From: Haemophilus sputorum CCUG 13788
GTDB taxonomy: Bacteria; Pseudomonadota; Gammaproteobacteria; Enterobacterales; Pasteurellaceae
Direction: 5' to 3'
DNA length: 64,000 bases
Assembly (NCBI RefSeq): GCF_000238795.1
Contig: NZ_AFNK01000035.1
Coordinates: 1 to 64,000, forward strand
Shown in pieces: positions 13,594-38,664 of this stretch (positions are counted from its first letter, which is position 1; every line of letters begins with the position of its first letter). A program made the position numbers and the translations under genes. The notes under the pieces were generated by a model. The model did no database searches, was not told where the DNA came from, and saw only the letters and a program-made list of their open reading frames with translations.

Positions 13594-13669
13594 TGGCTCC
13601 TCCTGCGGGACTCGAACCTGCGACATATGGATTAACAGTCCACCGTTCTACCGACTGAACTAAGGAGGA
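13594..13669 (-). tRNA. tRNA-Asn (anticodon GUU)
   Basis: The reverse complement reads tcctccttagttcagtcggtagaacggtggactGTTaatccatatgtcgcaggttcgagtcccgcaggaggagcca. 7-bp acceptor stem, GUU anticodon in a CU-GUU-AA loop, T-loop TTCGAGT, 3' CCA encoded. Near-identical to enterobacterial tRNA-Asn. A terminator-like hairpin lies downstream (~13466-13500). Confidence 0.85.
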
Positions 13670-25337: not shown

Positions 25338-25838
25338 ATGTTACAACAATCTATTATTGATAAGCTCAATGAGCAAATCAACCTAGAGTTCTACTCTTCA
25401 AATGTTTATCTTCAAATGTCTGCATGGTGTTCAAAACATGGTTTTACTGGTGCAGCAGACTTCTTACTTCGTCACGCAGATGAAGAATTAGAGCACATGC
25501 AAAAATTATTTGACTATGTTTGCGAAACGGGTGCAACACCATTATTAGGCAAAATTGAAGCACCTCGTAAAGAATATGCTTCATTAAAAGAGCTATTTGA
25601 TGTTGTGTTTGCACACGAAAAACACGTTACTGCAAAAATCAACGAATTAGTTGAAGTAACATTTGCAGCAAAAGATTACTCAACCTTCAACTTCCTACAA
25701 TGGTATGTGGCTGAGCAACATGAAGAAGAGAAATTATTCGGTGAAATCTTAGACAAATTCGCAGTTGCAGGTGAAACCAATAAATCACTTTACTTCATCG
25801 ACAAAGACTTAGAAACTTTAGACCAAGGAGCTGAATAA
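25338..25838 (+). CDS. ftnA: Bacterial non-heme ferritin
   Basis: 166 aa. Ferroxidase-centre residues in the ferritin fold ([14 protein letters not shown]...EELEHMQKL...AEQHEEE). The first of two tandem ferritin genes, as in Haemophilus. Confidence 0.85.
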
Positions 25839-26335
25839 TGTTATCTCAAAACATCGTAAAATACTTAAACGACCAATTAAACTTAGAATTCTATTCTTCA
25901 AATGTGTACCTTCAAATGTCTGCTTGGGCAGATAACAATGGTTTCCCAGGTGCAGCAAAATTCTTAAAAGCGCACGCAACAGAAGAAATGGAACATATGC
26001 GTCGTTTATTCACTTACTTAAACGAAACTGGTGCATTAGCAGAAATCTATGCAATTGAAGCACCAAAAGCAAAATATGATTCTTTAAAATCATTATTTGA
26101 AACCGTTTTCGAGCACGAAAAACACGTTACTGCAAAAATCAACGAATTAGTTGAAGTTGCATTTGATGCAAAAGACTACTCAACCTTCAACTTCTTACAA
26201 TGGTATGTTGCAGAACAACACGAAGAAGAGTTCTTATTCAACTCTATCTTAAACAAATTCCGTTTATTAGGTGAAGATGGTAAAGCGCTATACTATATCG
26301 ATAAAGATTTAGAAAAAATGGCAGCAGCACACTAA
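25838..26335 (+). CDS. ftnB: Bacterial non-heme ferritin, second tandem paralog
   Basis: 165 aa, ~60% identical to the upstream ferritin. Its start overlaps the upstream stop (TAATG). Confidence 0.85.
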
Positions 26336-30083: not shown

Positions 30084-30330
30084 TGTTGTAAAAATATAAC
30101 CGCTTGTTAGACAAAAAGGACTGAAATTGATTATAAAATCAAAATCAGTCCTTTTGGTTTTTAAGTATATTCTTTCTATCTCATATTATTTTCGATAAGC
30201 CCCATTCTGCTGTGTTTATTTAATAAGATAAAAACTATTTTGCCATTCATTACTTGCTATTTTTTAGATAGAATACTTGCCATTTATACCTACTATTTAA
30301 AGTTACCCGAAATCAGAAGGATATACATTT

Positions 30331-32001
30331 ATGGATAAGCCAGAAACCACTAAAAATGCGCTTGATAACCCCGCTTTACAACAAGCCTTCCTAAACGATC
30401 TAGATGAAAAACTTTGGTCATCTGCCGATAAACTGCGCCAGCAGCTTGATGCTGCCAATTACAAACACATCGTACTCGGCCTCATTTTCCTGAAATACAT
30501 CTCCGACAGCTTCACCCATCAGCAAGAAAAAATTCAGGCTGAACTGACCGATCCTGAAAACGCTCTCTATCTTGACCGCACTTTTTACGATACAGACGAA
30601 GAATATCAAGAAGCCTTAACCGTCGAACTGGAAAACCGCGACTACTACACCGCCGACAATGTGTTTTGGGTGCCGCAACAAGCCCGTTGGGACGAAATTA
30701 AAGCCGTTTCCATCTTAAACATCGGCGCAGAGCTGCCTTGGGGAGGGAAATTTTCCGGCGTGGCCAAACTGATTGACGATGCCTTCGATGCCATTGAAAA
30801 AGATAACGAAAAACTCAAAGGCGTACTCCAACGCATCAGCGGCTATGCCGTAAACGAAGACACCCTGCGCGGGCTGATTATCCTCTTCTCCGATACCAAC
30901 TTTACCCGCCCGACTTACAACGGCAAGTCCGTGCATTTGGGTGCAAAAGACATTCTCGGCCACGTTTACGAATACTTCCTCGGTCGCTTTGCCCAAGCCG
31001 AAGGCAAACGCGGCGGGCAATATTTCACGCCGAAATCCATTGTTTCCCTGATTGTCGAAATGCTCGAGCCATACTCCGGCCGCGTCTATGACCCGGCTAT
31101 GGGCAGCGGCGGCTTTTTCGTGCAAACCGAACGCTTTATCACCGCCCACCAAGGCAACATCAACAACGTGTCTATCTACGGGCAAGAATTCAACCCGACC
31201 ACATGGAAGCTCGCTGCGATGAATATGGCGATTCGTGGCATTGATTACGACTTCGGCAAACACAATGCTGACAGCTTCACCCAGCCGCAACACATCGACA
31301 AAAAGATGGATTTCATTATGGCAAACCCGCCATTCAACATCAGCGATTGGTGGAGCGAATCCCTAGCCGACGACCCACGTTGGGCATACGGCACGCCGCC
31401 CAAAGGCAACGCCAATTTCGCTTGGCTGCAACACATGATTTACCACCTCTCGCCAAACGGCAAAATGGCATTATTGCTGGCCAACGGCTCCATGAGCAGC
31501 CAAACCAACAACGAAGGCGAAATCCGCAAAGCCATCATCAATGCCGACTTGGTGGAATGTATGGTTGCCCTGCCCGGCCAGCTCTTCACCAATACCCAAA
31601 TCCCCGCCTGTATTTGGTTCTTAAACCGCAACAAAAAGCGCAAAGGCGAAGTGTTGTTTATCGATGCCCGCCAAATCGGCTATATGAAAGACCGCGTATT
31701 GCGCGATTTCACCTCTGACGACATCGCCAAAATTGCCAACACCCTCCACGCTTGGCAAAAATCAGACGGCTATGAAGACCAAGCCGCCTTCTGCAAATCC
31801 GCTACGTTAGAAGAGATTAAAGACAACGACTTCGTCCTCACACCGGGGCGCTATGTCGGCACCGCAGAACAAGAAGACGACGGCGTACCATTTGCAGAAA
31901 AAATGCAAAATCTGACCGCTCTTTTGAAGGAACAGTTTGCGAAGAGTGCGGAATTGGAAGCGGAGATTAAGAAGAATTTAGGGGGATTGGGTTATGAGTG
32001 A
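30331..32001 (+). CDS. hsdM: Type I restriction-modification system, methyltransferase subunit HsdM
   Basis: N-terminal HsdM domain (LWSSADKLRQQLDAANYKHIVLGLIFLKYISD). AdoMet motif DPAMGSGGF. Catalytic NPPF (IMANPPFN). 556 aa. GC content is clearly higher than the flanks. Confidence 0.9.
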   Translation: MDKPETTKNALDNPALQQAFLNDLDEKLWSSADKLRQQLDAANYKHIVLGLIFLKYISDSFTHQQEKIQAELTDPENALYLDRTFYDTDEEYQEALTVELENRDYYTADNVFWVPQQARWDEIKAVSILNIGAELPWGGKFSGVAKLIDDAFDAIEKDNEKLKGVLQRISGYAVNEDTLRGLIILFSDTNFTRPTYNGKSVHLGAKDILGHVYEYFLGRFAQAEGKRGGQYFTPKSIVSLIVEMLEPYSGRVYDPAMGSGGFFVQTERFITAHQGNINNVSIYGQEFNPTTWKLAAMNMAIRGIDYDFGKHNADSFTQPQHIDKKMDFIMANPPFNISDWWSESLADDPRWAYGTPPKGNANFAWLQHMIYHLSPNGKMALLLANGSMSSQTNNEGEIRKAIINADLVECMVALPGQLFTNTQIPACIWFLNRNKKRKGEVLFIDARQIGYMKDRVLRDFTSDDIAKIANTLHAWQKSDGYEDQAAFCKSATLEEIKDNDFVLTPGRYVGTAEQEDDGVPFAEKMQNLTALLKEQFAKSAELEAEIKKNLGGLGYE

Positions 32002-33346
32002 TAACTTTAAAACTGATACTTTAGATAGCTTATGTGAATTAATCGTGGATTGTCCACATTCAACTCCGACATGGACAACTTTCGGCTATGTAGTAATTAG
32101 AAATCAAAACATCACTGATGGTGTATTAGATTTATCATCACCGAGCTATACGGATTACTCAGGGTACAGAGATAGAACCAAAAGAGCCAGCCCACAAGAA
32201 AATGATATCGTAATCACCCGAGAAGCGCCGATGGGAAGAGTTTGCTTAATTCCTAAAGAACCAATCTGTTGTCTAGGGCAAAGACAAGTATTACTTCGTG
32301 CCGATAGAAACAAAATAAGTGCTGAATATCTCTACTGGTCTCTACGCTCCTCATTTGTTCAACGACAAATTCTAATAAATGAAGGAACAGGAGCAACCGT
32401 TAGTAATATGAGAATACCTGTGTTAAAAGCACTAGAAATTCCGCGGTTAGCATCCATTGAAATAGAAAATAAGAAAGCGAGAGATTTATCTAATATTCAA
32501 AATAAAATCCAACTCAACACCCAAATCAACCAAACCTTGGAACAAATCGCCCAAGCCCTGTTTAAAAGTTGGTTTGTCGATTTCGACCCCGTGCGTGCCA
32601 AAGTCCAAGCCCTTTCAGACGGCCTTAGCATTGAACAAGCAGAGCTGGCAGCCATGCAGGCAATCAGCGGAAAAACACCCGAAGAACTGACCGCACTTTC
32701 ACAAGCCGAGCCTGACCGCTACGCCGAACTAGCAGAAACCGCCAAAGCGTTTCCGTGTGAGATGGTGGAAGTTGATGGGGTTGAAATGCCAAAGGGGTGG
32801 GAATATTGCAGCTTTGGTGATGTTTCAGAATGCTTTGATAGTAAACGTATCCCTTTATCTAAACAACAACGAGAAAAGAGAAAAGGTAATATTCCTTATT
32901 ATGGTGCAACATCTGTTATGGATTATGTAGATGAAGCTATTTTTGATGATATTTATTTATTAGTTGGCGAAGATGGTTCCGTTTTAAAAGAAGATGGAAC
33001 GCCATTTACTCAATACATTTGGGGTAAATCTTGGGTAAACAACCATGCACATATCCTCAAAGGAAGGAATGGTATAAGTACTGAACACTTAATGATATTT
33101 ATTCAACAAACAAATATATCTGCTTATATCACAGGAGCTGTTCAGCTTAAGTTAAACCAAAAAAATATGAATAGTATTCCATTTTTAAGAGCTAATAATG
33201 CAATTAATGCTTTTTTTGCAGAATATATTGAATCTCTATATGCAAAAATCAGAAAAAATTTTGATGAGAATAAAGTATTAGAGGCAACTAGAGATTTATT
33301 ATTACCTAAATTATTGAGTGGGAATTTTTCAAATGGAAAAAACTAA
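31994..33346 (+). CDS. hsdS: Type I restriction-modification system, specificity subunit HsdS
   Basis: Start ATGAGTGA overlaps the hsdM stop. Two target-recognition domains, separated by a conserved central region (LEQIAQALFKSWFVDFDP...) and followed by a C-terminal conserved helix (LLLPKLLSGNF). The target-recognition domains are low-GC. The central region is high-GC and contains a Neisseria DUS. Confidence 0.85.
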   Translation: MSDNFKTDTLDSLCELIVDCPHSTPTWTTFGYVVIRNQNITDGVLDLSSPSYTDYSGYRDRTKRASPQENDIVITREAPMGRVCLIPKEPICCLGQRQVLLRADRNKISAEYLYWSLRSSFVQRQILINEGTGATVSNMRIPVLKALEIPRLASIEIENKKARDLSNIQNKIQLNTQINQTLEQIAQALFKSWFVDFDPVRAKVQALSDGLSIEQAELAAMQAISGKTPEELTALSQAEPDRYAELAETAKAFPCEMVEVDGVEMPKGWEYCSFGDVSECFDSKRIPLSKQQREKRKGNIPYYGATSVMDYVDEAIFDDIYLLVGEDGSVLKEDGTPFTQYIWGKSWVNNHAHILKGRNGISTEHLMIFIQQTNISAYITGAVQLKLNQKNMNSIPFLRANNAINAFFAEYIESLYAKIRKNFDENKVLEATRDLLLPKLLSGNFSNGKN

Positions 33347-34184
33347 TCTTATCGGGAATGATAGAGTCCCTGTTTTAGCAGAAATCAATACATTAGATGA
33401 ATTAAAATCCCTTTTATCTGCTCACTCTTATATATTTGATGAAGAAACGCCTGATATATATAAAAGCATACCATCAACAAGTGAAAGTTATACTATTTAC
33501 GCTCGATATTATCGCGGGCATAGCCGTGAAGATTATCGTTTGCAATCAACTTTAGAGCGATATTTAAAAAAGTTTGATAAACAAATTGATATTGAAAAAG
33601 AGTATGAAAAGCTACAAGGAAAATATCTTGAGCATTGCAAACGTATTCTGCTTAATCAAAGTATTGACGGCTATATTTCATTACCAAGTAACCTTGAAGA
33701 TAACGATATTTGGGCATTTGGACAGCATTATCAATTAAAAACGCCTTTATTAGACTGGACTAAATCTTTCTTTATTGCACTTTATTTTGCTTTTGAGAGT
33801 CATGAAGAAAATCAAAAAGAAAATCAATATCGTGTTATTTATGAATTAAATGAATTTTTTAATGTTGGTGAAAAGCTCATTATTGAACCAATAATTAAAA
33901 TTGGAAATCGTATCAATGCACAAAAAGGCGTTTTTACGAAGTTATCATCTAGGGAATTTGATGAGATTGCCAAAATGAATACAAACTTTGGTAATGGGTA
34001 TGTTTTTCATAGATTAAGTAAAATTCTTATTTCTAATGAATTAAGAAAAGATGTTTTAGCTTATCTTGCCTCAATTAATATTGATGCTTCAACAATTTAT
34101 CCTGATTTATTAGGAAAAATAAAACTTTGTGAAATTGGCATTGATAATGCGATTACAGAGATTAATTTAGAATATCAAGACTAG
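33333..34184 (+). CDS. FRG-domain-like protein of unknown function (~283 aa), embedded between hsdS and hsdR
   Basis: The ATG at 33333 is preceded by gagtggg and overlaps the last 14 nt of hsdS (alternative GTG at 33318). Low GC. Motifs YRGHSREDYRL, WAFGQHYQLKTPLLDWTKSFFIALYFA and NRINAQKGVFTKL correspond, by my recollection, to the FRG, QHYGLPTRLLDWT and R-x-x-aQ-x-G-x-F signatures of Pfam FRG-domain proteins. This was not searched. Confidence 0.5.
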   Translation: MEKTNLIGNDRVPVLAEINTLDELKSLLSAHSYIFDEETPDIYKSIPSTSESYTIYARYYRGHSREDYRLQSTLERYLKKFDKQIDIEKEYEKLQGKYLEHCKRILLNQSIDGYISLPSNLEDNDIWAFGQHYQLKTPLLDWTKSFFIALYFAFESHEENQKENQYRVIYELNEFFNVGEKLIIEPIIKIGNRINAQKGVFTKLSSREFDEIAKMNTNFGNGYVFHRLSKILISNELRKDVLAYLASINIDASTIYPDLLGKIKLCEIGIDNAITEINLEYQD

Positions 34185-34206
34185 GAAGAATAGCAGCAAT
34201 CCTCAC

Positions 34207-34215
34207 ACAAGCGGT
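34207..34215 (+). repeat. Apl-type USS (ACAAGCGGT) immediately downstream of the FRG-like gene
   Basis: Exact 9-mer followed by a T-run (acaagcggttattttttc). This is the only Pasteurellaceae USS inside the RM island. Confidence 0.6.
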
Positions 34216-34259
34216 TATTTTTTCAGAGCGTTTTGTAAATGATGAGGTTTATTTCACCT

Positions 34260-34447
34260 CTGCCAAATCTCCCCTCCCCCTCTTTGCTAAAGAGGGGATT
34301 GGATCGAAGGTAATTTAAATTTTGGCTTTCTACTTTAATATGCGATGAGAAATTGAAATTTTCTTAGATTAACAATGAGCCAGTTGCTGACAATTTACTC
34401 AAGGAATCCCCCTCTTTAGCAAAGAGGGGTTAGGGGAGATTTGGCAG
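34260..34447. mobile_element. Unclassified MITE-like element: two ~42-bp near-perfect inverted arms around ~104 bp
   Basis: Left arm ctgccaaatctcccctccccctctttgctaaagaggggatt (34260-34300). The reverse complement of the right arm (34405-34447) is ctgccaaatctcccctaacccctctttgctaaagagggggatt. Each arm holds an internal palindrome cccctcttt-gct-aaagagggg. No ORF inside. Confidence 0.4.
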
Positions 34448-34513
34448 TATCAATAAACGAAGAAATTAATCCATTAGCTCCCCAAAGACAGCAAATACAC
34501 AAAAGGACACTCT

Positions 34514-37500
34514 ATGCTCAACGAAAACGACATCGAACAACTTACCCTTCAACGCCTGCAATCCCTCGGTTGGGAATATCGCTACGGTAAAGACTTGCCT
34601 GTTCATGAAGGCGAGTTTGCACGTGGCGATTTAAGCGGTGTGGTCTTTATTGAGCAACTGCGAGAGGCAGTGCGTAAGCTTAATCCGCAACTGCCTGAAA
34701 GTGCGGTTGATTCGGTGGTGAAATCGGCGACGAAAAGCGATATTGGCGACTTGGTGGTGCGTAATCAGGCGTTTTATAAACTGTTGCGTGATGGCGTGCG
34801 GGTGGAATATCAGGCAAACGGTGAACAAAAAATCGAGATGGCGCGCTTGGTGGATTTTGAGCATGTGAAGAACAACCGCTTTATTGCCGTCAATCAGCTG
34901 GAAATCCGCAGCCGTAAAGGGGGGAAACGAATTCCCGATATTATCGGCTTTGTGAATGGCCTGCCCTTGGTGGTATTTGAGCTGAAAAATCCGTTGCGTG
35001 AATCGGCGGATTTGTTGCAGGCGTTTAATCAGTTTGAAACCTATAAAGATGAAATTGCCGAGCTGTTTGTTTACAACCAAGCCCTGATTATTTCAGACGG
35101 CATAGCCGCACGTTTGGGCTCGCTTTCGGCAGATTTCCAACGCTTTACGCCGTGGAAAGTGGTTGATGAAAAAAATAAAAGCGCGCGCTTATATTTTGAT
35201 GATGAATTACAAAGCCTGCTCAATGGCTTAATGAAGCCTGAGGATTTATTGAACTATATCCGCTATTTCGTCTTATTTGAGCGGGATTCCAGCGGTAAAA
35301 CCATTAAAAAAATCGCAGCGTACCATCAATATTACGGCGTAAATGAAGCGGTAGATTCCACGCTTTTTGCAACTTCAGAAAAAGGCGACCGCCGCATTGG
35401 CGTGATGTGGCATACGCAAGGTTCGGGTAAGTCAATTTCCATGTTGTTTTATGCCGGCAAACTGCTTGCGCAGCCTGAATTGAAAAATCCGACGATTGTG
35501 GTGGTTACCGACCGTAACGATTTGGACGGTCAGCTTTTCCAAACCTTTTCTTCAGGCAAAGATTTAATCAAACAAACGCCGCAACAAGTGGAAGACCGCG
35601 ATCAACTGCGCCAACTGCTCGCGCAAAATGAAGTCGGCGGCGTATTTTTTACTACGATTCAGAAATTCGCCCTAAATGAGGAAGAAAGCCGCTTCCCTGT
35701 TTTAAACGAGCGCAGCAATATTATTGTAATCAGCGATGAGGCACACCGCAGCCAATATGGCTTTACGCAAAAATTGCATAAAGGCAAGTTTCAAGCAGGC
35801 TACGCCCGCCATTTGCGCGATGCGCTGCCTAATGCTTCGTTTATCGGTTTTACCGGTACACCGATTAGCCTAGAAGATAAAGACACGCAAGATGTGTTCG
35901 GACGTTATGTGTCGATTTATGACTTACAAGATGCGGTGGAAGACGGCGCAACCGTGCCGATTGTGTATGAAGCGCGCCAAATCCGCTTAAACGAAAAAGA
36001 ACACGATGAGCTATTCAAAGAAATTGATGATTTGCTGGAAGAGGAGCAATCCCCTGCCCTGCGTTTGCAGGAAAAACTGCTGGGTTCGCAAGCCCGTCTG
36101 GCTGATTTAGCCGCGGATTTTGTGCAGCATTTTGCCAAACGCAATGAAGTCGTCGACAGCAAAGCGATGATGGTGGTTTCCAGTCGTCAGATTTGCGTGG
36201 ACTTATACAATGAAATCATCAAACTGCGCCCAGAATGGCATTCGGATAATATCAACGAAGGGGTGATTAAAATTGTGATGACGGGTTCTGCTTCCGATGC
36301 GCCGGAAATGCAGAAACACGTTTACAGTAAACAGGAAAAACAAACGCTGGAACGCCGCTTTAAAGACCCGAACGATCCGCTGAAAGTAGTGATTGTGCGC
36401 GATATGTGGCTGACGGGCTTTGATGCGCCTTGCTGTAATACGATGTATATCGACAAGCCGATGCAAGGGCATAACCTGATGCAGGCGATTGCTCGGGTTA
36501 ACCGTGTATTTCGCAATAAAAGCCGAGAAAACGGCGGCTTGATTGTGGATTATGTAGGCATTGCTGACAAGCTCAAAGAAGCGACCCAGCAATACACCAA
36601 TTCACAAGGCAAGGGCAAGCTGACTGATAACGTGATTGATGTGTTCTTTAAAATGAAAGAGCATTTAGAATTCGTCCGTAGCCTGTTTGCAACGCCGGTT
36701 GAAGGGAAAACCTTTGATGTTCAGACGGCCTTAGAAAAAGATAATCCGAATGATCTTCTGATGGCTATTCGTTTTGCCGCCAACCATATTTTTTGCCTCG
36801 ATCGATTACCGTTTGATGGCAAAGTGCACGAGCAACATTGGTTTAATAAAAAAGAAACCGAGCCACGTAAAAAAGCCTTTTTGAAAGCGGCGGGTTTGGT
36901 GAAAAAAGGCTATATGCTATGCGGCGCATTGGCTGAAGTTGAGCCATACAGCCAAGAAATTGCTTTTTATGATGCAGTACGCGCTATTCTCACGAAGAAC
37001 AAACAAAATGGTACGGGTTCTAATGAAAGACAGATTTTATTGAAAAAATTGGTCAATCAAGCCGTCTATTCCGAAGGCGTGATTGATTTGTTTGATCTGC
37101 TGGAAAAACCGCAGCCTCAAATCAATCTACTTTCTGAAGAGTTTTTGCAGACCATTAAAAACAGCCCGACTAAGAACTTATGGGTCAGCGCGGTGGAGCG
37201 TTATTTGGCAAGCGAAATCAAAGCCAAATCAGGCGCAAACCTCACCTTGCAAAAAGACTTCGAGCAGCGTTTAAAAGAAGCCCTAAATCAATACCACAAC
37301 CATAATTTAAGCGTGGTGGAAATTTTGGATGAGCTCTTCAAAATGAGCCAAGACTTCCAAGAACGCTTAGCTTTAGGTGAAAAGCTGGGGCTGAAAAAAG
37401 AAGAACTCGCTTTCTACGAAGCCCTCGCCCAAAACCAAAGCGCCCGAGAGCTGATGGGCGATGAAGTATTGAGCAAACTTGCCAAAGAAATTACCGATAC

Positions 37501-37678
37501 TTTAAGACGCTCAGTTACCATCGACTGGCAATACAAAGAAGGCGTACGTGCCAAAATGCGCATTCTCGTGAAACGAGCTTTACAGCGTTATAAATACCCG
37601 CCGGATAAACAGGAAGAAGCCGTGAGCTATGTGATTAAGCAAGCGGAGGAAATTGCGGAAGATCTCAGCCAACTTTAA
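34514..37678 (+). CDS. hsdR: Type I restriction-modification system, restriction subunit HsdR (helicase-nuclease)
   Basis: 1054 aa. Superfamily-2 helicase motifs (HTQGSGKS Walker A; DEAH box ISDEAHRSQYG). Typical N-terminal nuclease region. High GC, Neisseria-like codon usage. Contains two Neisseria DUS. Confidence 0.9.
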   Translation: MLNENDIEQLTLQRLQSLGWEYRYGKDLPVHEGEFARGDLSGVVFIEQLREAVRKLNPQLPESAVDSVVKSATKSDIGDLVVRNQAFYKLLRDGVRVEYQANGEQKIEMARLVDFEHVKNNRFIAVNQLEIRSRKGGKRIPDIIGFVNGLPLVVFELKNPLRESADLLQAFNQFETYKDEIAELFVYNQALIISDGIAARLGSLSADFQRFTPWKVVDEKNKSARLYFDDELQSLLNGLMKPEDLLNYIRYFVLFERDSSGKTIKKIAAYHQYYGVNEAVDSTLFATSEKGDRRIGVMWHTQGSGKSISMLFYAGKLLAQPELKNPTIVVVTDRNDLDGQLFQTFSSGKDLIKQTPQQVEDRDQLRQLLAQNEVGGVFFTTIQKFALNEEESRFPVLNERSNIIVISDEAHRSQYGFTQKLHKGKFQAGYARHLRDALPNASFIGFTGTPISLEDKDTQDVFGRYVSIYDLQDAVEDGATVPIVYEARQIRLNEKEHDELFKEIDDLLEEEQSPALRLQEKLLGSQARLADLAADFVQHFAKRNEVVDSKAMMVVSSRQICVDLYNEIIKLRPEWHSDNINEGVIKIVMTGSASDAPEMQKHVYSKQEKQTLERRFKDPNDPLKVVIVRDMWLTGFDAPCCNTMYIDKPMQGHNLMQAIARVNRVFRNKSRENGGLIVDYVGIADKLKEATQQYTNSQGKGKLTDNVIDVFFKMKEHLEFVRSLFATPVEGKTFDVQTALEKDNPNDLLMAIRFAANHIFCLDRLPFDGKVHEQHWFNKKETEPRKKAFLKAAGLVKKGYMLCGALAEVEPYSQEIAFYDAVRAILTKNKQNGTGSNERQILLKKLVNQAVYSEGVIDLFDLLEKPQPQINLLSEEFLQTIKNSPTKNLWVSAVERYLASEIKAKSGANLTLQKDFEQRLKEALNQYHNHNLSVVEILDELFKMSQDFQERLALGEKLGLKKEELAFYEALAQNQSARELMGDEVLSKLAKEITDTLRRSVTIDWQYKEGVRAKMRILVKRALQRYKYPPDKQEEAVSYVIKQAEEIAEDLSQL

Positions 37679-37693
37679 TAAAAAATGAGGAAT

Positions 37694-37733
37694 AAAAAAA
37701 TCAGGACGAATAATATTCGCCCTGATTTTTTAC
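37694..37733. terminator. Bidirectional rho-independent terminator at the right edge of the RM island
   Basis: aaaaaatcaggacgaataatattcgccctgattttttac: 11-bp stem flanked by A and T runs. Lies between convergent hsdR and the lipoprotein gene. Confidence 0.65.
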
Positions 37734-37780
37734 TAAATAATATAAGATTCAATTAAATATGTTGAATAAAAGCTCAAACC

Positions 37781-38632
37781 TTACCACTCTATCGGCGAGG
37801 TAAACACCGATAGCACATTCGGGTGGCTTCGTTGATTTTTTACTTCGCCATTGATGCTTAATTCATAAAAATTACCCCCTACGCTTGCGGAGTATTTTTT
37901 ATTAAACTTTCTTGCACTTTTCTTGCGGTATTGCACGGTAAAAGTCACTTTCTCTTCAACATCAAATTGTTTAGCATTTTCAACTTTTTCTACATCAAAA
38001 TTTTTAGCCAATTCAACGCCTTTTTCTTCATAAAATGGCCATAAAATGGATTCAGCAGAACCATATTTAAAGGCAAATTCTGTCTCAAGCGCTTTTTTCT
38101 GTTCTTCTGTTAGCGAACAAGCACCGCCTCGAGGCCAACTTACCTCAGAAATAAATTGAGTAAGCTCAGTAGTTGGATCAGGGAAATGACAAAACGCTGT
38201 CACTAACTCTCTAAGGCGTACTTCATTATATGCTGGTGTTTTATCGCTTTTACGATCTTCATATTGCTTACGCACCTTTTCAAATTCTTCCGCAGGAATA
38301 ACTTTTTTTGCAATCTCATCTAATCTAGAAAGCTCAGAGGCAAATCTTTGGCGTAATTGGAGATTCGTTTTACTATGGCAAACAACATTAACTTTTATTG
38401 AATCACTAACATCACCGCCTCTTTGCCACGTGATTTCATTCGATTCTTGCGACCATGTTGGATTATTACAACGGCCACTTTGTGCCAAAAGTTCAGCATA
38501 AGTGATTTCTTTACCATTGTGTTCTGTAACGTACGATTGAACTGTACTAATTGGATCTAAGGTTTCATTACAACCGCTGACAGCGAAAGCAAAAATTGCT
38601 GTTGTAGAAAGCATCAATAATGGTTTCTTCAT
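37781..38632 (-). CDS. Hypothetical lipoprotein (283 aa)
   Basis: Signal peptide with lipobox (AVSGC). No recognisable family. Low GC. Lies downstream of polA on the same strand. Confidence 0.45.
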   Translation of the reverse strand: MKKPLLMLSTTAIFAFAVSGCNETLDPISTVQSYVTEHNGKEITYAELLAQSGRCNNPTWSQESNEITWQRGGDVSDSIKVNVVCHSKTNLQLRQRFASELSRLDEIAKKVIPAEEFEKVRKQYEDRKSDKTPAYNEVRLRELVTAFCHFPDPTTELTQFISEVSWPRGGACSLTEEQKKALETEFAFKYGSAESILWPFYEEKGVELAKNFDVEKVENAKQFDVEEKVTFTVQYRKKSARKFNKKYSASVGGNFYELSINGEVKNQRSHPNVLSVFTSPIEW

Positions 38633-38664
38633 TCGAACTCCTGTTTTAGCTTCATTTAAAAAAT

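What the first reader, a model, noticed from the sequence alone, without database searches (positions are those of the whole stretch)
30170..37740. Type I RM island of Neisseria-like origin in a Pasteurellaceae chromosome: high GC, Neisseria DUS copies, no host USS in the conserved parts
**What the sequence shows**
- The conserved parts of hsdM, the hsdS central region and hsdR have clearly higher GC than the surrounding ~38-40% GC genome. The codon usage is rich in CTG, GCC and GGC.
- Three exact copies of TTCAGACGGC (the reverse complement of the Neisseria DNA uptake sequence GCCGTCTGAA) occur at 32614-32623 (hsdS core), 35092-35103 (as the full 12-mer TTCAGACGGCAT) and 36720-36729 (hsdR).
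- About 0.01 copies of a given 10-mer are expected by chance in 7 kb.
- The host's own Apl-type USS (ACAAGCGGT, 23 copies across the window) is absent from these high-GC segments.
- The island is bounded by terminator hairpins (~30112-30156 and 37694-37733). There is no tRNA, integrase or direct repeat at the boundaries.

**Inference**
- This argues for an inter-family transfer of a Neisseria-type type I system into a naturally competent Pasteurellaceae, by transformation and homologous or illegitimate recombination. The target-recognition domains and accessory gene were later remodelled with low-GC DNA.
Basis: seen in the sequence. Interest (0 to 1): 0.75.

Follow-up and report, generated by a model that had tools for sequence, protein, structure and literature searches.

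The report
Restriction island carrying two uptake tags
A strain-specific type I restriction-modification island in the oral bacterium Haemophilus sputorum belongs to a gene pool that is swapped between Haemophilus and Neisseria, and its conserved genes carry the DNA-uptake "passwords" of both families as a record of that traffic.

Summary
There are three exact Neisseria DUS, hsdM and hsdR have high GC and Neisseria-like codon usage, both boundary hairpins fold, and there is no tRNA, integrase or direct repeat. The host is Haemophilus sputorum. The island (30161-37778) is absent from most conspecific contigs.

Both tag sets sit at homologous positions in many Haemophilus species and in two Neisseria chromosomes.

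The system is a HindVIIP-family type I RM. Its tree is rooted in Pasteurellaceae, with Neisseria and Eikenella copies nested inside. The USS sites are older, because Rodentibacter shares them. DUS1 and DUS3 are younger. In Neisseria the locus looks foreign: DUS-poor, below flank GC, and the only place with Hin-USS.

The low-GC target-recognition domains and accessory gene show the same pattern in the Neisseria copies, so they are not host remodelling. The window's TRD2+FRG cassette matches H. parainfluenzae-group loci. Its hsdR forms a 100%-supported clade with one Neisseria allele.

Verdict: real two-way Haemophilus-Neisseria exchange by transformation. The system is not Neisseria-native, and the immediate donor is unresolved.

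The parts
30161..37778 (+). The island. It is present in the window and replaced by about 13-21 bp in most H. sputorum contigs.
   Evidence: Alignment with the empty sites L081, L083, L084, L086, L088 and L089 and with L080. The right end abuts the stop codon of the 283-aa gene.
30114..30155 (+). Terminator hairpin of the upstream CMD-family gene. It belongs to the conserved flank, and the left junction lies just after it.
   Evidence: Fold energy -21.7 kcal/mol, z = -6.0. The hairpin is also present at empty sites.
30161..30330 (+). AT-rich leader and promoter region. It is island-specific and shared only with the other H. sputorum hsd allele (L082).
30331..32001 (+). hsdM (556 aa), with GC 0.50 and GC3 0.61. 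It has no simple-sequence repeat tract at its 5' end.
   Evidence: Pfam N6_Mtase and HsdM_N. PADLOC MTase_I. The exact protein is named H. sputorum subunit M. 5' end comparison.
30575..30583 (-). Hin-type USS 1 (aAAGTGCGGTc), inside hsdM.
   Evidence: It is exact in all crown alleles, in Neisseria, in Eikenella and in some Rodentibacter and Aggregatibacter.
31994..33346 (+). hsdS (450 aa). TRD1 spans about 32003-32485 (GC 0.38), the conserved core 32486-32802 (GC 0.50), and TRD2 plus the C-terminus 32803-33346 (GC 0.29).
   Evidence: Pfam Methylase_S with two matched stretches. Homology breakpoints. Segment GC. TRD comparisons.
32614..32623 (-). DUS1 (AG-DUS 12-mer), in the hsdS core.
32690..32698 (-). 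Hin-type USS 2, in the hsdS core, 76 bp from DUS1. It encodes TAL.
   Evidence: It is also exact in Gallibacterium anatis and Avibacterium homologues.
33333..34184 (+). FRG-domain accessory gene, a PADLOC PDC-S15 candidate defence gene. The likely ATG at 33333 overlaps the end of hsdS. GC is 0.29.
   Evidence: Pfam FRG. PDC-S15 at 3.9e-136, matching from residue 6 of the ORF. Sequence. Homologues in the same slot in L014, L094 and L095.
34207..34215 (+). Host-type (Apl-type) USS with an AT-rich tail, in non-coding sequence.
34260..34447 (.). MITE-like inverted-repeat element directly upstream of hsdR.
34514..37678 (+). hsdR (1054 aa), with GC 0.46.
   Evidence: Pfam HSDR_N, SWI2_SNF2, T1R_D3-like and T1RH-like_C. 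TIGR00348. The exact protein is named H. sputorum HsdR.
34699..34707 (+). Hin-type USS 3, in hsdR. It encodes ESAV.
35092..35103 (-). DUS2 (AT-DUS 12-mer), on the universally conserved ISDG motif. It may be fortuitous.
   Evidence: The same 10-mer occurs in Gallibacterium, Lonepinella and Moraxella homologues.
36720..36729 (-). DUS3 (AG-DUS 12-mer), in hsdR. It was created by an Ala-to-Thr change relative to sister alleles.
37695..37731 (+). hsdR terminator hairpin, inside the island.
   Evidence: Fold energy -16.4 kcal/mol, z = -5.2.

Best explanation
**What it is**
- This is an intact HindVIIP-family type I restriction-modification operon: hsdM, hsdS, an FRG/PDC-S15 accessory gene, and hsdR.
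- It sits in a strain-variable defence hot spot of Haemophilus sputorum, between a CMD-family gene and the 283-aa lipoprotein gene that precedes polA.

**How it works (inferred from the family)**
- M2S methylates a bipartite target set by the two target-recognition domains.
- R2M2S translocates along unmodified DNA and cuts it.

**Shared allele pool**
- The conserved modules (hsdM, the hsdS core, hsdR) belong to a mosaic allele pool.
- That pool is shared among human oral and respiratory Haemophilus and Aggregatibacter and, secondarily, Neisseria and Eikenella.

**History (inferred)**
- The family is native to Pasteurellaceae, where it acquired three Hin-type USS.
- Copies then entered Neisseriaceae. 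There GC3 rose and the AG-type DUS1 and DUS3 arose.
- DUS-marked alleles flowed back into Haemophilus.

**Mode of transfer (inferred)**
- Movement is by natural transformation.
- The conserved modules serve as homology arms around the hypervariable TRD and accessory cassette.
- Within H. sputorum the chromosomal flanks serve the same role.

**What remains open**
- The immediate donor of the H. sputorum copy is unresolved.
- The conserved arms are as close to oral Neisseria as to Haemophilus.
- The variable cassette and the inverted-repeat element are Haemophilus-like.
For: **Genes and host**
- The gene set is intact.
- The host is identified from exact proteins named H. sputorum.

**Island status**
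- Conspecific contigs show four alternative states at this site: empty, lipoprotein gene only, hsd island, or GmrSD.
- The junctions are clean, with no direct repeat, tRNA or integrase.

**Family assignment**
- The 90%-identity clusters hold 3469 HsdM and 3636 HsdR members.
- Named members are mostly Haemophilus, including some named HindVIIP, plus one Neisseria sp..

**Uptake tags inside versus outside the hsd region**
- In ten Pasteurellaceae loci, DUS occur only inside: 19 in about 70 kb, against 0 in about 187 kb of flanks.
- In four Neisseriaceae loci, Hin-USS occur only inside: 9 in 26 kb, against 0 in 54 kb of flanks.
- Neisseria flanks carry one DUS per 0.6 kb. The hsd region carries one per 2.3-3.7 kb.
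- Eikenella flanks carry 30 eikDUS each. Their hsd region carries one.

**Relative age of the sites**
- USS1 to USS3 are shared with Rodentibacter and Aggregatibacter.
- DUS1 and DUS3 occur only in the crown group. DUS1 also occurs in one Eikenella.

**Trees**
- hsdM: the crown group has 100% bootstrap support. Crown plus Eikenella has 99.5%, and adding Rodentibacter gives 100%.
- Deeper branches are all Pasteurellaceae or Moraxella.
- Neisseria alleles are nested in a subclade with the H. parainfluenzae group and H. sputorum (95-100%).
- hsdR: the window, L082 and Neisseria L090 form a clade with 100% support.

**Other lines**
- Segment-by-segment identity shows mosaicism.
- hsdM and hsdR composition is intermediate: above Haemophilus flanks and below Neisseria flanks.
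- Codon usage is Neisseria-like.
- In Pasteurellaceae hosts USS are kept in 27 of 28 cases and DUS in 15 of 26, Fisher p = 7e-4. The alleles are not independent.
- TRD2, the FRG gene and the intergenic stretch are 85-88% identical to H. parainfluenzae-group loci.
- DUS is needed for Neisseria transformation, and a USS does not substitute for it (PMC3630211).
- The two USS subclades have different uptake specificity (PMC1626085).
Against: - Direction is inferred from NJ trees on heavily recombinant genes, with one genome per species, and from parsimony on six short sites.
- GC3 is above the host level in every Pasteurellaceae member, Rodentibacter included. Elevated GC therefore need not come from a stay in Neisseria.
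- The DUS2 10-mer also occurs in Gallibacterium, Lonepinella and Moraxella homologues. It lies on the universally conserved ISDG motif and may be fortuitous. That leaves two clearly derived DUS.
- No uptake, transformation, methylation or restriction activity was measured.
- The competence of H. sputorum was not examined.
Confidence: 0.7

Rival explanations
1. A Neisseria-native type I system (NgoAV/NmeBI-like) was transferred directly from Neisseria into H. sputorum. Its target-recognition domains and accessory gene were then rebuilt with low-GC host DNA.
For: - Three DUS lie at the same positions as in Neisseria L003.
- Codon usage is Neisseria-like.
- Nucleotide identity to Neisseria L090 is 95-98%.
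- The hsdR clade of the window, L082 and L090 has 100% support.
- The window's hsdM has the highest GC3 of all Pasteurellaceae alleles, equal to the Neisseria value.
Against: - The family tree is rooted in Pasteurellaceae, with Neisseria nested inside.
- Only one Neisseria species representative appears among the best 80 genome hits, against more than ten Pasteurellaceae species.
- The three Hin-USS are older than the DUS.
- In Neisseria the locus is DUS-poor, lies below flank GC, and is the only carrier of Hin-USS.
- The low-GC TRD and accessory pattern is identical in the Neisseria copies.
- The window's TRD2+FRG cassette and its inverted-repeat element match Haemophilus loci and are absent from the Neisseria loci.
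- In the hsdR clade, L090 pairs with L082 inside the H. sputorum pair at 77.5% support. If anything, this favours transfer from H. sputorum to Neisseria.
Confidence: 0.15
2. The whole island came into H. sputorum from a Hin-type Haemophilus of the H. parainfluenzae group. On this reading the DUS are inherited baggage from an older stay in Neisseria, and the Neisseria L090 hsdR allele was exported from H. sputorum.
For: - L095 and L094 (Hin-USS-rich, with flanks 92-95% identical to H. parainfluenzae) share the full architecture.
- That architecture includes TRD2, the FRG gene and the intergenic stretch at 85-88% identity, with all three DUS intact.
- The best HsdR protein matches (98%) lie in this same chromosomal context.
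- The inverted-repeat element is shared with Haemophilus only.
- There is a published precedent for gene flow between H. sputorum and H. influenzae (Nielsen 2015, as cited in PMC6619384).
Against: - Nucleotide identity of hsdR to these loci (92-94.6%) is no higher than to Neisseria L090 (95.5-95.8%).
- Cassette identity of 85-88% is too low for a recent donor.
- Hin-type USS are a poor match to the Apl-type uptake specificity of the H. sputorum subclade (PMC1626085).
Confidence: 0.4
3. The DUS and Hin-USS copies are chance matches or by-products of coding constraints. They say nothing about history.
For: - DUS2 sits on the universally conserved ISDG motif.
- The same 10-mer appears in distant homologues from genera that do not use DUS.
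- TAL and SAV are common coding frames for USS (bioRxiv 10.1101/2025.10.24.684340).
Against: - The Poisson probability of three or more DUS 10-mers in 5.15 kb is 1.6e-7. For three or more Hin 9-mers it is 1e-5. No shuffle reached the observed counts.
- The motifs lie in different frames and orientations.
- DUS1, DUS3 and USS1 encode clade-specific residues, not conserved ones.
- Each tag occurs only inside the hsd region in the other family's genomes.
Confidence: 0.02
4. The Neisseria loci are mis-assembled or mis-binned Haemophilus DNA. On this reading there is no Neisseria carrier at all.
For: L003 comes from a metagenome-assembled genome.
Against: - Two independent assemblies show the same context: OPT gene, hsd, pyrD.
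- DUS-dense sequence of 53-55% GC lies on both sides. One locus sits on a 396-kb contig.
- The flanks of L003 and L090 are 95-96% identical to each other.
Confidence: 0.02

Closest known systems
HindVIIP (HindI-type) type I restriction-modification system of Haemophilus influenzae
   Same: - HsdM and HsdR fall in the same 90%-identity clusters as proteins that sources name HindVIIP M and R.
- The gene order is the same: hsdM, hsdS, a variable slot, then hsdR.
- The Pfam C-terminal domain T1RH-like_C is named after HindI.
- The Hin-USS lie at the same positions.
   Different: - The host is H. sputorum, in the Apl-type USS subclade, and the chromosomal site is different.
- The target-recognition domains are different.
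- An FRG/PDC-S15 gene occupies the variable slot.
- There is no pentanucleotide repeat at the hsdM 5' end, so this allele is not phase-variable by that route. The H. influenzae gene (hsdM3) is reported as phase-variable (PMC6156194).
- All three DUS are intact here, whereas the H. influenzae representative L015 keeps one.
Haemophilus-Neisseria intergeneric gene exchange recognised from foreign uptake sequences (Kroll et al. 1998 PNAS; recalled from memory, not retrieved here)
   Same: - Uptake sequences of one family lie embedded in genes carried by the other family, and they mark transfer by transformation between co-resident nasopharyngeal bacteria.
- Hin-USS occur only inside the hsd region of the Neisseria and Eikenella loci.
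   Different: - Here the marks run both ways in the same genes: DUS in Haemophilus copies and USS in Neisseria copies.
- The locus is a restriction-modification operon.
- A third, Apl-type USS is present in the H. sputorum copy.
- My library searches found no description of this locus.
EcoR124I/II (type IC), the only solved HsdR relatives
   Same: - HsdR shares the motor and nuclease core (E about 1e-33, residues 104-505).
- The gene order hsdM-hsdS-hsdR matches type IC, as far as I recall.
   Different: - The similarity is weak and partial.
- HsdM is far closer to PDB 3khk (E = 1e-211) than to the EcoR124 M subunit (1.5e-41) or EcoKI M subunit (1e-15).
- A type IA-IE sub-family was not assigned.
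NgoAV / NmeBI type I systems of pathogenic Neisseria
   Same: They are type I systems found in Neisseria.
   Different: - This was not tested directly, because no sequence was available in the tools.
- No N. gonorrhoeae or N. meningitidis representative appeared among the 80 best HsdM loci, which reach down to about 61% identity.
PADLOC candidate defence family PDC-S15 (FRG-domain proteins)
   Same: The accessory protein matches PDLC04940 over its whole length (3.9e-136). It also matches Pfam FRG.
   Different: - It is a candidate family only. I found no functional study.
- Longer PDC-S15 models share a C-terminal stretch with the HsdR C-terminus. This 283-288-aa protein lacks that stretch.

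Membership tests
Type I restriction-modification system | HsdM: an N6-adenine methyltransferase domain plus the HsdM N-terminal domain | tested here: met
   PF02384 at 4e-124 over the full profile, and PF12161. PADLOC MTase_I at 7e-181.
Type I restriction-modification system | HsdS with two target-recognition domains separated by a conserved core | tested here: met
   PF01420 matches in two stretches. PADLOC Specificity_I. The core 32486-32802 is conserved across loci while the flanking TRDs are unrelated.
Type I restriction-modification system | HsdR with an N-terminal nuclease domain, an SF2 translocase and a C-terminal domain | tested here: met
   PF04313, PF18766, PF22679 and PF11867, all at near-full coverage. 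TIGR00348 at 795 bits against a cut-off of 285.
Type I restriction-modification system | Methylation and ATP-dependent restriction activity on a bipartite target | not testable with these tools
   Needs a methylome and restriction assays.
HindVIIP-family hsd (Haemophilus) | At least 90% protein identity to proteins named HindVIIP M and R | tested here: met
   Cluster co-membership. Named H. influenzae HindVIIP R hits at 83-91% identity.
Neisseria DNA uptake sequence (DUS) | Exact 10-mer GCCGTCTGAA with an AT or AG 12-mer extension | tested here: met
   Three copies, extended as AG, AT and AG. Dialect definitions are taken from PMC3630211.
Neisseria DNA uptake sequence (DUS) | Present at the homologous positions in a real Neisseria genome whose own dialect matches | tested here: met
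   L003 has all three sites, with the same AG/AT/AG pattern. L090 has DUS1 and DUS2 intact and one mismatch at DUS3. The flanks of both carry almost only AG-DUS.
Neisseria DNA uptake sequence (DUS) | Each copy is derived in this lineage and is not an ancestral coding accident | tested here: inconclusive
   DUS1 and DUS3 are derived, with clade-specific residues. The DUS2 10-mer also occurs in Gallibacterium, Lonepinella and Moraxella homologues.
Neisseria DNA uptake sequence (DUS) | Enhances ComP-dependent uptake of this fragment | not testable with these tools
   Needs an uptake or transformation assay.
Hin-type Pasteurellaceae USS | Exact 9-mer core AAGTGCGGT | tested here: met
   Three copies in the island out of four in the window, all with the preceding A that makes the 10-mer AAAGTGCGGT.
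Hin-type Pasteurellaceae USS | AT-rich flanking segments downstream of the core | tested here: not met
   The tails are 50-54% AT, and all three copies are in coding sequence. The two Apl-type USS nearby have tails of 75-82% AT. Many genomic USS lie in coding sequence (PMC1626085); that coding USS usually lack the AT-rich flank is my own recollection.
Integrase-mobilised genomic island | Integrase or recombinase gene, a tRNA or other att site, and flanking direct repeats | tested here: not met
   No such Pfam domain in the island or neighbouring ORFs. The only tRNA is at 13594. No direct repeat of 8 nt or more links the junctions.
NgoAV/NmeBI-type Neisseria hsd | Close sequence relationship to those systems | not tested
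   No reference sequence was available. There is only indirect negative evidence.
PDC-S15 candidate defence gene | Match to the family HMM | tested here: met
   PDLC04940 at 3.9e-136, matching 280 of 280 profile positions.

The most novel reading that the evidence does not exclude
The conserved arms of this restriction-modification family are not just passively scarred. By carrying working uptake tags for two competence systems (ComP/DUS in Neisseria and USS in Pasteurellaceae, plus an Apl-type USS in the H. sputorum copy), they act as a dual passport. The tags sit in the arms and in the 300-bp hsdS core, flanking both target-recognition domains and the accessory slot. They would let specificity and defence cassettes move by natural transformation between two bacterial classes, and biased uptake would maintain them. 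On this reading a defence system has adapted to spread through the very route it is supposed to police.
Probability: 0.25. Interest if true: 0.65.

Novelty: new member of a known kind. Interest (0 to 1): 0.42.

Why it matters
- Uptake sequences are thought to restrict transformation to kin, and restriction systems to block foreign DNA. Here a restriction operon is itself one of the loci that crosses the barrier between Pasteurellaceae and Neisseriaceae.
- The locus keeps a readable, datable record of that traffic in both directions: older USS, younger DUS, and host-type USS only in the newest non-coding part.
- This gives a concrete locus for testing how much uptake tags govern inter-family gene flow in the human upper airway.
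- The family includes hsdM3, a gene reported as phase-variable in H. influenzae.
- As a type I RM island it is otherwise ordinary.

Tried and rejected
- **Host-USS depletion as evidence of foreignness.** It is not significant: 3.1 copies expected and 1 seen in the island (P = 0.18), and 2.1 expected and 0 seen in the conserved parts (P = 0.12).
- **Consensus terminator scan.** It did not report the two boundary hairpins. Folding confirmed them.
- **Island-mobility signatures.** I found no tRNA, integrase or direct repeats.
- **Later low-GC remodelling in the host.** Rejected, because the same GC pattern exists in the Neisseria, Eikenella and H. parainfluenzae copies.
- **Flank homology among the 79 genome loci.** None shares flanks with the window. 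The empty site was recovered through an exact-protein look-up of the CMD gene instead.
- **Relatives of TRD1 and TRD2 in close loci.** There were none initially. TRD1 resembles TRDs in Alcanivorax and an uncultured bacterium at 68% amino-acid identity. TRD2 was later found in L095.
- **Literature searches for a prior description.** I searched for DUS plus USS in hsd or HindVIIP genes and found nothing specific. One search failed on term length, and a search for the Kroll 1998 paper did not retrieve it.
- **Searches on the 283-aa neighbour.** Pfam, NCBIfam and PADLOC gave nothing. It has a lipoprotein signal peptide only.
- **Type IA-IE sub-family.** Not assigned. Only weak similarity to EcoR124 was found.

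Full report
**Observation**

The pattern GCCGTCTGAA occurs exactly three times in the 64-kb window, at 32614, 35092 and 36720. All three read TTCAGACGGC on the coding strand. Shuffles give 0.09 copies on average, and none reached three.

The 12-mers are AG-DUS, AT-DUS and AG-DUS. The copies lie in two reading frames: T-TCA-GAC-GGC encodes SDG twice, and GTT-CAG-ACG-GCC encodes VQTA once. The signal is therefore at the DNA level.

The ORFs are as follows:
- hsdM, 30331-32001
- hsdS, 31994-33346
- an FRG-domain gene, with its likely ATG at 33333, ending at 34184
- hsdR, 34514-37678

| Segment | GC | GC3 |
|---|---|---|
| hsdM | 0.50 | 0.61 |
| hsdR | 0.46 | 0.49 |
| hsdS | 0.37 | – |
| FRG gene | 0.29 | – |
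| rest of window | 0.397 | – |
| five host genes | – | 0.32 |

The fractions of CTG, GCC and GGC among their synonymous codons in hsdM and hsdR resemble Neisseria flank genes far more than H. sputorum genes.

ACAAGCGGT occurs 24 times. None lies in the three hsd genes, and one lies at 34207 in the intergenic stretch. This depletion is not significant (P = 0.12-0.18).

Both boundary hairpins fold well. There is no nearby tRNA, no recombinase domain and no junction direct repeat.

The island also contains three exact Hin-type USS (AAGTGCGGT). They lie at 30575 in hsdM, at 32690 in the hsdS core (76 bp from DUS1), and at 34699 in hsdR. Only four occur in the whole window, against 0.37 expected. 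They sit in three different frames or orientations.

**Host and island status**

The exact HsdM, HsdS, HsdR and CMD proteins are named Haemophilus sputorum by NCBI and UniRef. This is a human oral and respiratory species with an Apl-type USS.

An exact-protein look-up of the CMD gene returned conspecific metagenome contigs showing four states of the interval between the CMD gene and polA:
- CMD directly followed by polA (L080)
- CMD, a 283/284-aa lipoprotein gene, then polA (six of the ten contigs shown)
- a GmrSD gene plus a 292-aa gene (L085, L087)
- an hsd island with other target-recognition domains and a 199-aa accessory gene (L082)

Alignment puts the window's island at 30161 to about 37778. 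It starts just after the CMD terminator, ends at the stop codon of the lipoprotein gene, and replaces about 13-21 bp.

**Relatives**

| Group | HsdM identity |
|---|---|
| Crown group: H. haemolyticus, H. parainfluenzae, H. quentini, H. influenzae, H. sp. oral taxon 851, H. paraphrohaemolyticus, a Hin-type uncultured genome, one Neisseria MAG (L003) | 89-98% |
| Eikenella | 91-92% |
| Rodentibacter | 75-88% |
| Aggregatibacter | 88% |
| Gallibacterium | 74-76% |
| Avibacterium, Lonepinella, Mannheimia, Moraxella | 72% |
| Diverse gammaproteobacteria | about 61-65% |

No locus shared flanks with the window.

The 90% clusters hold 3469 HsdM and 3636 HsdR members. Named members are Haemophilus, including some named HindVIIP, plus one Neisseria sp.. 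The named HsdR hits are Haemophilus, Aggregatibacter segnis, Eikenella, Rodentibacter and Pelistega.

Looking up the Neisseria sp. HsdR gave L090, on a 396-kb contig. Its gene order is OPT, hsdM, hsdS, a 404-aa gene, hsdR, pyrD. This is the same context as L003.

L090 is 95.0%, 98.0% and 95.8% identical to the window at the nucleotide level in hsdM, the hsdS core and hsdR. That is as close as the conspecific allele L082.

**Tags inside and outside the hsd region**

Across ten Pasteurellaceae loci, DUS occur only inside the hsd region: 19 in about 70 kb, against 0 in about 187 kb of flanks. Across four Neisseriaceae loci, Hin-USS occur only inside: 9 in 26 kb, against 0 in 54 kb.

Neisseria flanks carry one DUS per 0.6 kb, almost all of the AG dialect. 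Their hsd regions carry one per 2.3-3.7 kb.

Eikenella flanks carry 30 eikDUS each, and their hsd regions carry one.

In the Neisseria loci, hsdR (GC 0.46) and the whole hsd region of L090 (0.42) lie below flank GC of 0.53-0.55. In every host, therefore, the locus looks partly foreign.

**Order of events**

Site-by-site comparison gave these results:
- USS1 and USS3 are exact in the crown group and in several Rodentibacter. USS1 is also exact in both Eikenella and in Aggregatibacter; Eikenella has one mismatch at USS3, and USS3 was not aligned in Aggregatibacter.
- USS2 is exact even in Gallibacterium anatis and Avibacterium.
- DUS1 (LSDG, where Rodentibacter has LAQG) is confined to the crown group, plus one Eikenella.
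- DUS3 (VQTA, where sister alleles have VQAA) is confined to the crown group.
- DUS2 lies on the universally conserved ISDG motif. The same 10-mer occurs in Gallibacterium, Lonepinella and Moraxella homologues, so it may be fortuitous. It is also the only AT-type 12-mer.

NJ trees with 200 bootstraps gave the following:
- hsdM: the crown group has 100% support. Crown plus Eikenella has 99.5%, and adding Rodentibacter gives 100%. Both Neisseria alleles are nested in a subclade with the H. parainfluenzae group, the window and L001 (95%).
- hsdR: the window, L082 and Neisseria L090 form a clade with 100% support. L090 pairs with L082 at 77.5%. L003 falls elsewhere.

Segment-wise identity shows a mosaic, in which the best partner changes every few hundred bases.

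In Pasteurellaceae crown alleles the USS are intact in 27 of 28 cases and the DUS in 15 of 26 (Fisher p = 7e-4). The alleles are not independent.

**Variable modules**

Homology among loci breaks at 32002-32486 and at 32803-34513.

The low GC of the target-recognition domains and the accessory gene (0.27-0.38) is the same in the Neisseria, Eikenella and H. parainfluenzae copies. It is a property of the family, not remodelling in H. sputorum.

The closest HsdR proteins (98%) come from metagenome contigs that are rich in Hin-USS and whose flanks are 92-95% identical to H. parainfluenzae. All three DUS are intact in them. Two of the five (L094, L095) carry an FRG gene. L095 matches the window from the hsdS core through TRD2, the FRG gene and part of the intergenic stretch at 88%.

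The inverted-repeat element upstream of hsdR (34260-34447) is shared with Haemophilus copies and is absent from Neisseria L090.

**Interpretation**

The island is an intact HindVIIP-family type I RM operon in a defence hot spot of H. sputorum.

Four things are shown:
- the tags, and their distribution inside and outside the hsd region in each family
- the nesting of Neisseriaceae alleles within Pasteurellaceae alleles
- mosaicism of the conserved genes
- strain variability of the island

Four things are inferred:
- The family is native to Pasteurellaceae, where it acquired its USS.
- It entered Neisseriaceae, where it gained DUS1 and DUS3 and perhaps GC3.
- It returned to Haemophilus. Exchange continues by natural transformation, using the conserved modules as homology arms.
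- The last step into H. sputorum cannot be assigned. The arms are as close to oral Neisseria as to Haemophilus, while the cassette and the inverted-repeat element are Haemophilus-like.

Published work supports the functional meaning of the tags. DUS-less or USS-bearing DNA does not transform N. meningitidis, and AG-DUS works at about 90% of the AT-DUS efficiency (PMC3630211). The Hin-type and Apl-type subclades prefer their own USS (PMC1626085). TAL and SAV are the common coding frames of Hin-USS (bioRxiv 10.1101/2025.10.24.684340).

**Novelty**

Type I RM islands and Haemophilus-Neisseria exchange are both known. The classic Kroll 1998 report is cited from memory only. My searches found no description of reciprocal tags in this hsd family.

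I rate this a new member of a known kind, of moderate interest.

Noticed in passing
window 30331-30348; L082 10792-10960; L002, L004-L007, L011, L012, L014, L015, L069 at the hsdM 5' ends: Relatives carry simple-sequence repeats right after the hsdM start codon. H. influenzae, H. haemolyticus and H. quentini have (GAGAC)n. H. parainfluenzae has (GACAC)n. H. paraphrohaemolyticus, Aggregatibacter, Rodentibacter and the other H. sputorum allele carry 7-nt units, with at least 9 copies of AAGCCAG in the last. The window has a single AAGCCAG unit, and the Neisseria and Eikenella copies have none. The window allele therefore looks fixed in frame, not phase-variable.
   Followed up: partly
window 34260-34447: A MITE-like element sits directly upstream of hsdR, with terminal inverted repeats of about 40 nt, each itself a hairpin (CCCCTCTTTGCTAAAGAGGGG). 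It occurs only here in the window. It lies at the same place in several Haemophilus copies, in tandem duplicate in H. parainfluenzae L007, and is absent from Neisseria L090. In other copies the interior holds a USS-like GCAAGCGGTCGG; the window's interior differs.
   Followed up: partly
L080-L089, equivalent to the window interval 30161-38660: The interval between the CMD gene and polA is a defence hot spot in H. sputorum. Conspecific contigs have nothing there, a 283/284-aa lipoprotein gene only, a GmrSD gene plus a 292-aa gene, or an hsd island with other target-recognition domains.
   Followed up: partly
window 37781-38632 (- strand): A 283-aa predicted lipoprotein (signal peptide ending in the lipobox VSGC) has no family match in Pfam, NCBIfam or PADLOC. 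It is absent from one conspecific contig (L080).
   Followed up: partly
L023 14467 and 16429; L022 16505; L021 15498; L017 10184; L020 17440: Exact Neisseria DUS 10-mers also occur in the distant hsdR homologues (63-64% nucleotide identity) of Moraxella lacunata (two), Mannheimia cairinae, Lonepinella and Gallibacterium anatis. One more lies just downstream of hsdR in Avibacterium volantium. Three of them lie at the ISDG site. Two lie at a second shared site that corresponds to about window 37069.
   Followed up: partly
window HsdR residues 961-1051 (about 37394-37666): The HsdR C-terminus weakly matches the C-terminal part of the longer PDC-S15 (FRG) models in PADLOC (1.7e-9). Some FRG-family proteins may therefore share an HsdR-like C-terminal module.
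   Followed up: no
window 25368-25815 and 25868-26315: Two adjacent ferritin-family genes are about 74% identical at the DNA level. They form a tandem paralogue pair that is conserved in all conspecific contigs.
   Followed up: no
L009 13050 and L010 13164: In the Eikenella hsd operons, the single eikDUS copy lies about 180 nt into hsdR. That is next to the position of the degraded Hin-USS 3, which has one mismatch there.
   Followed up: no
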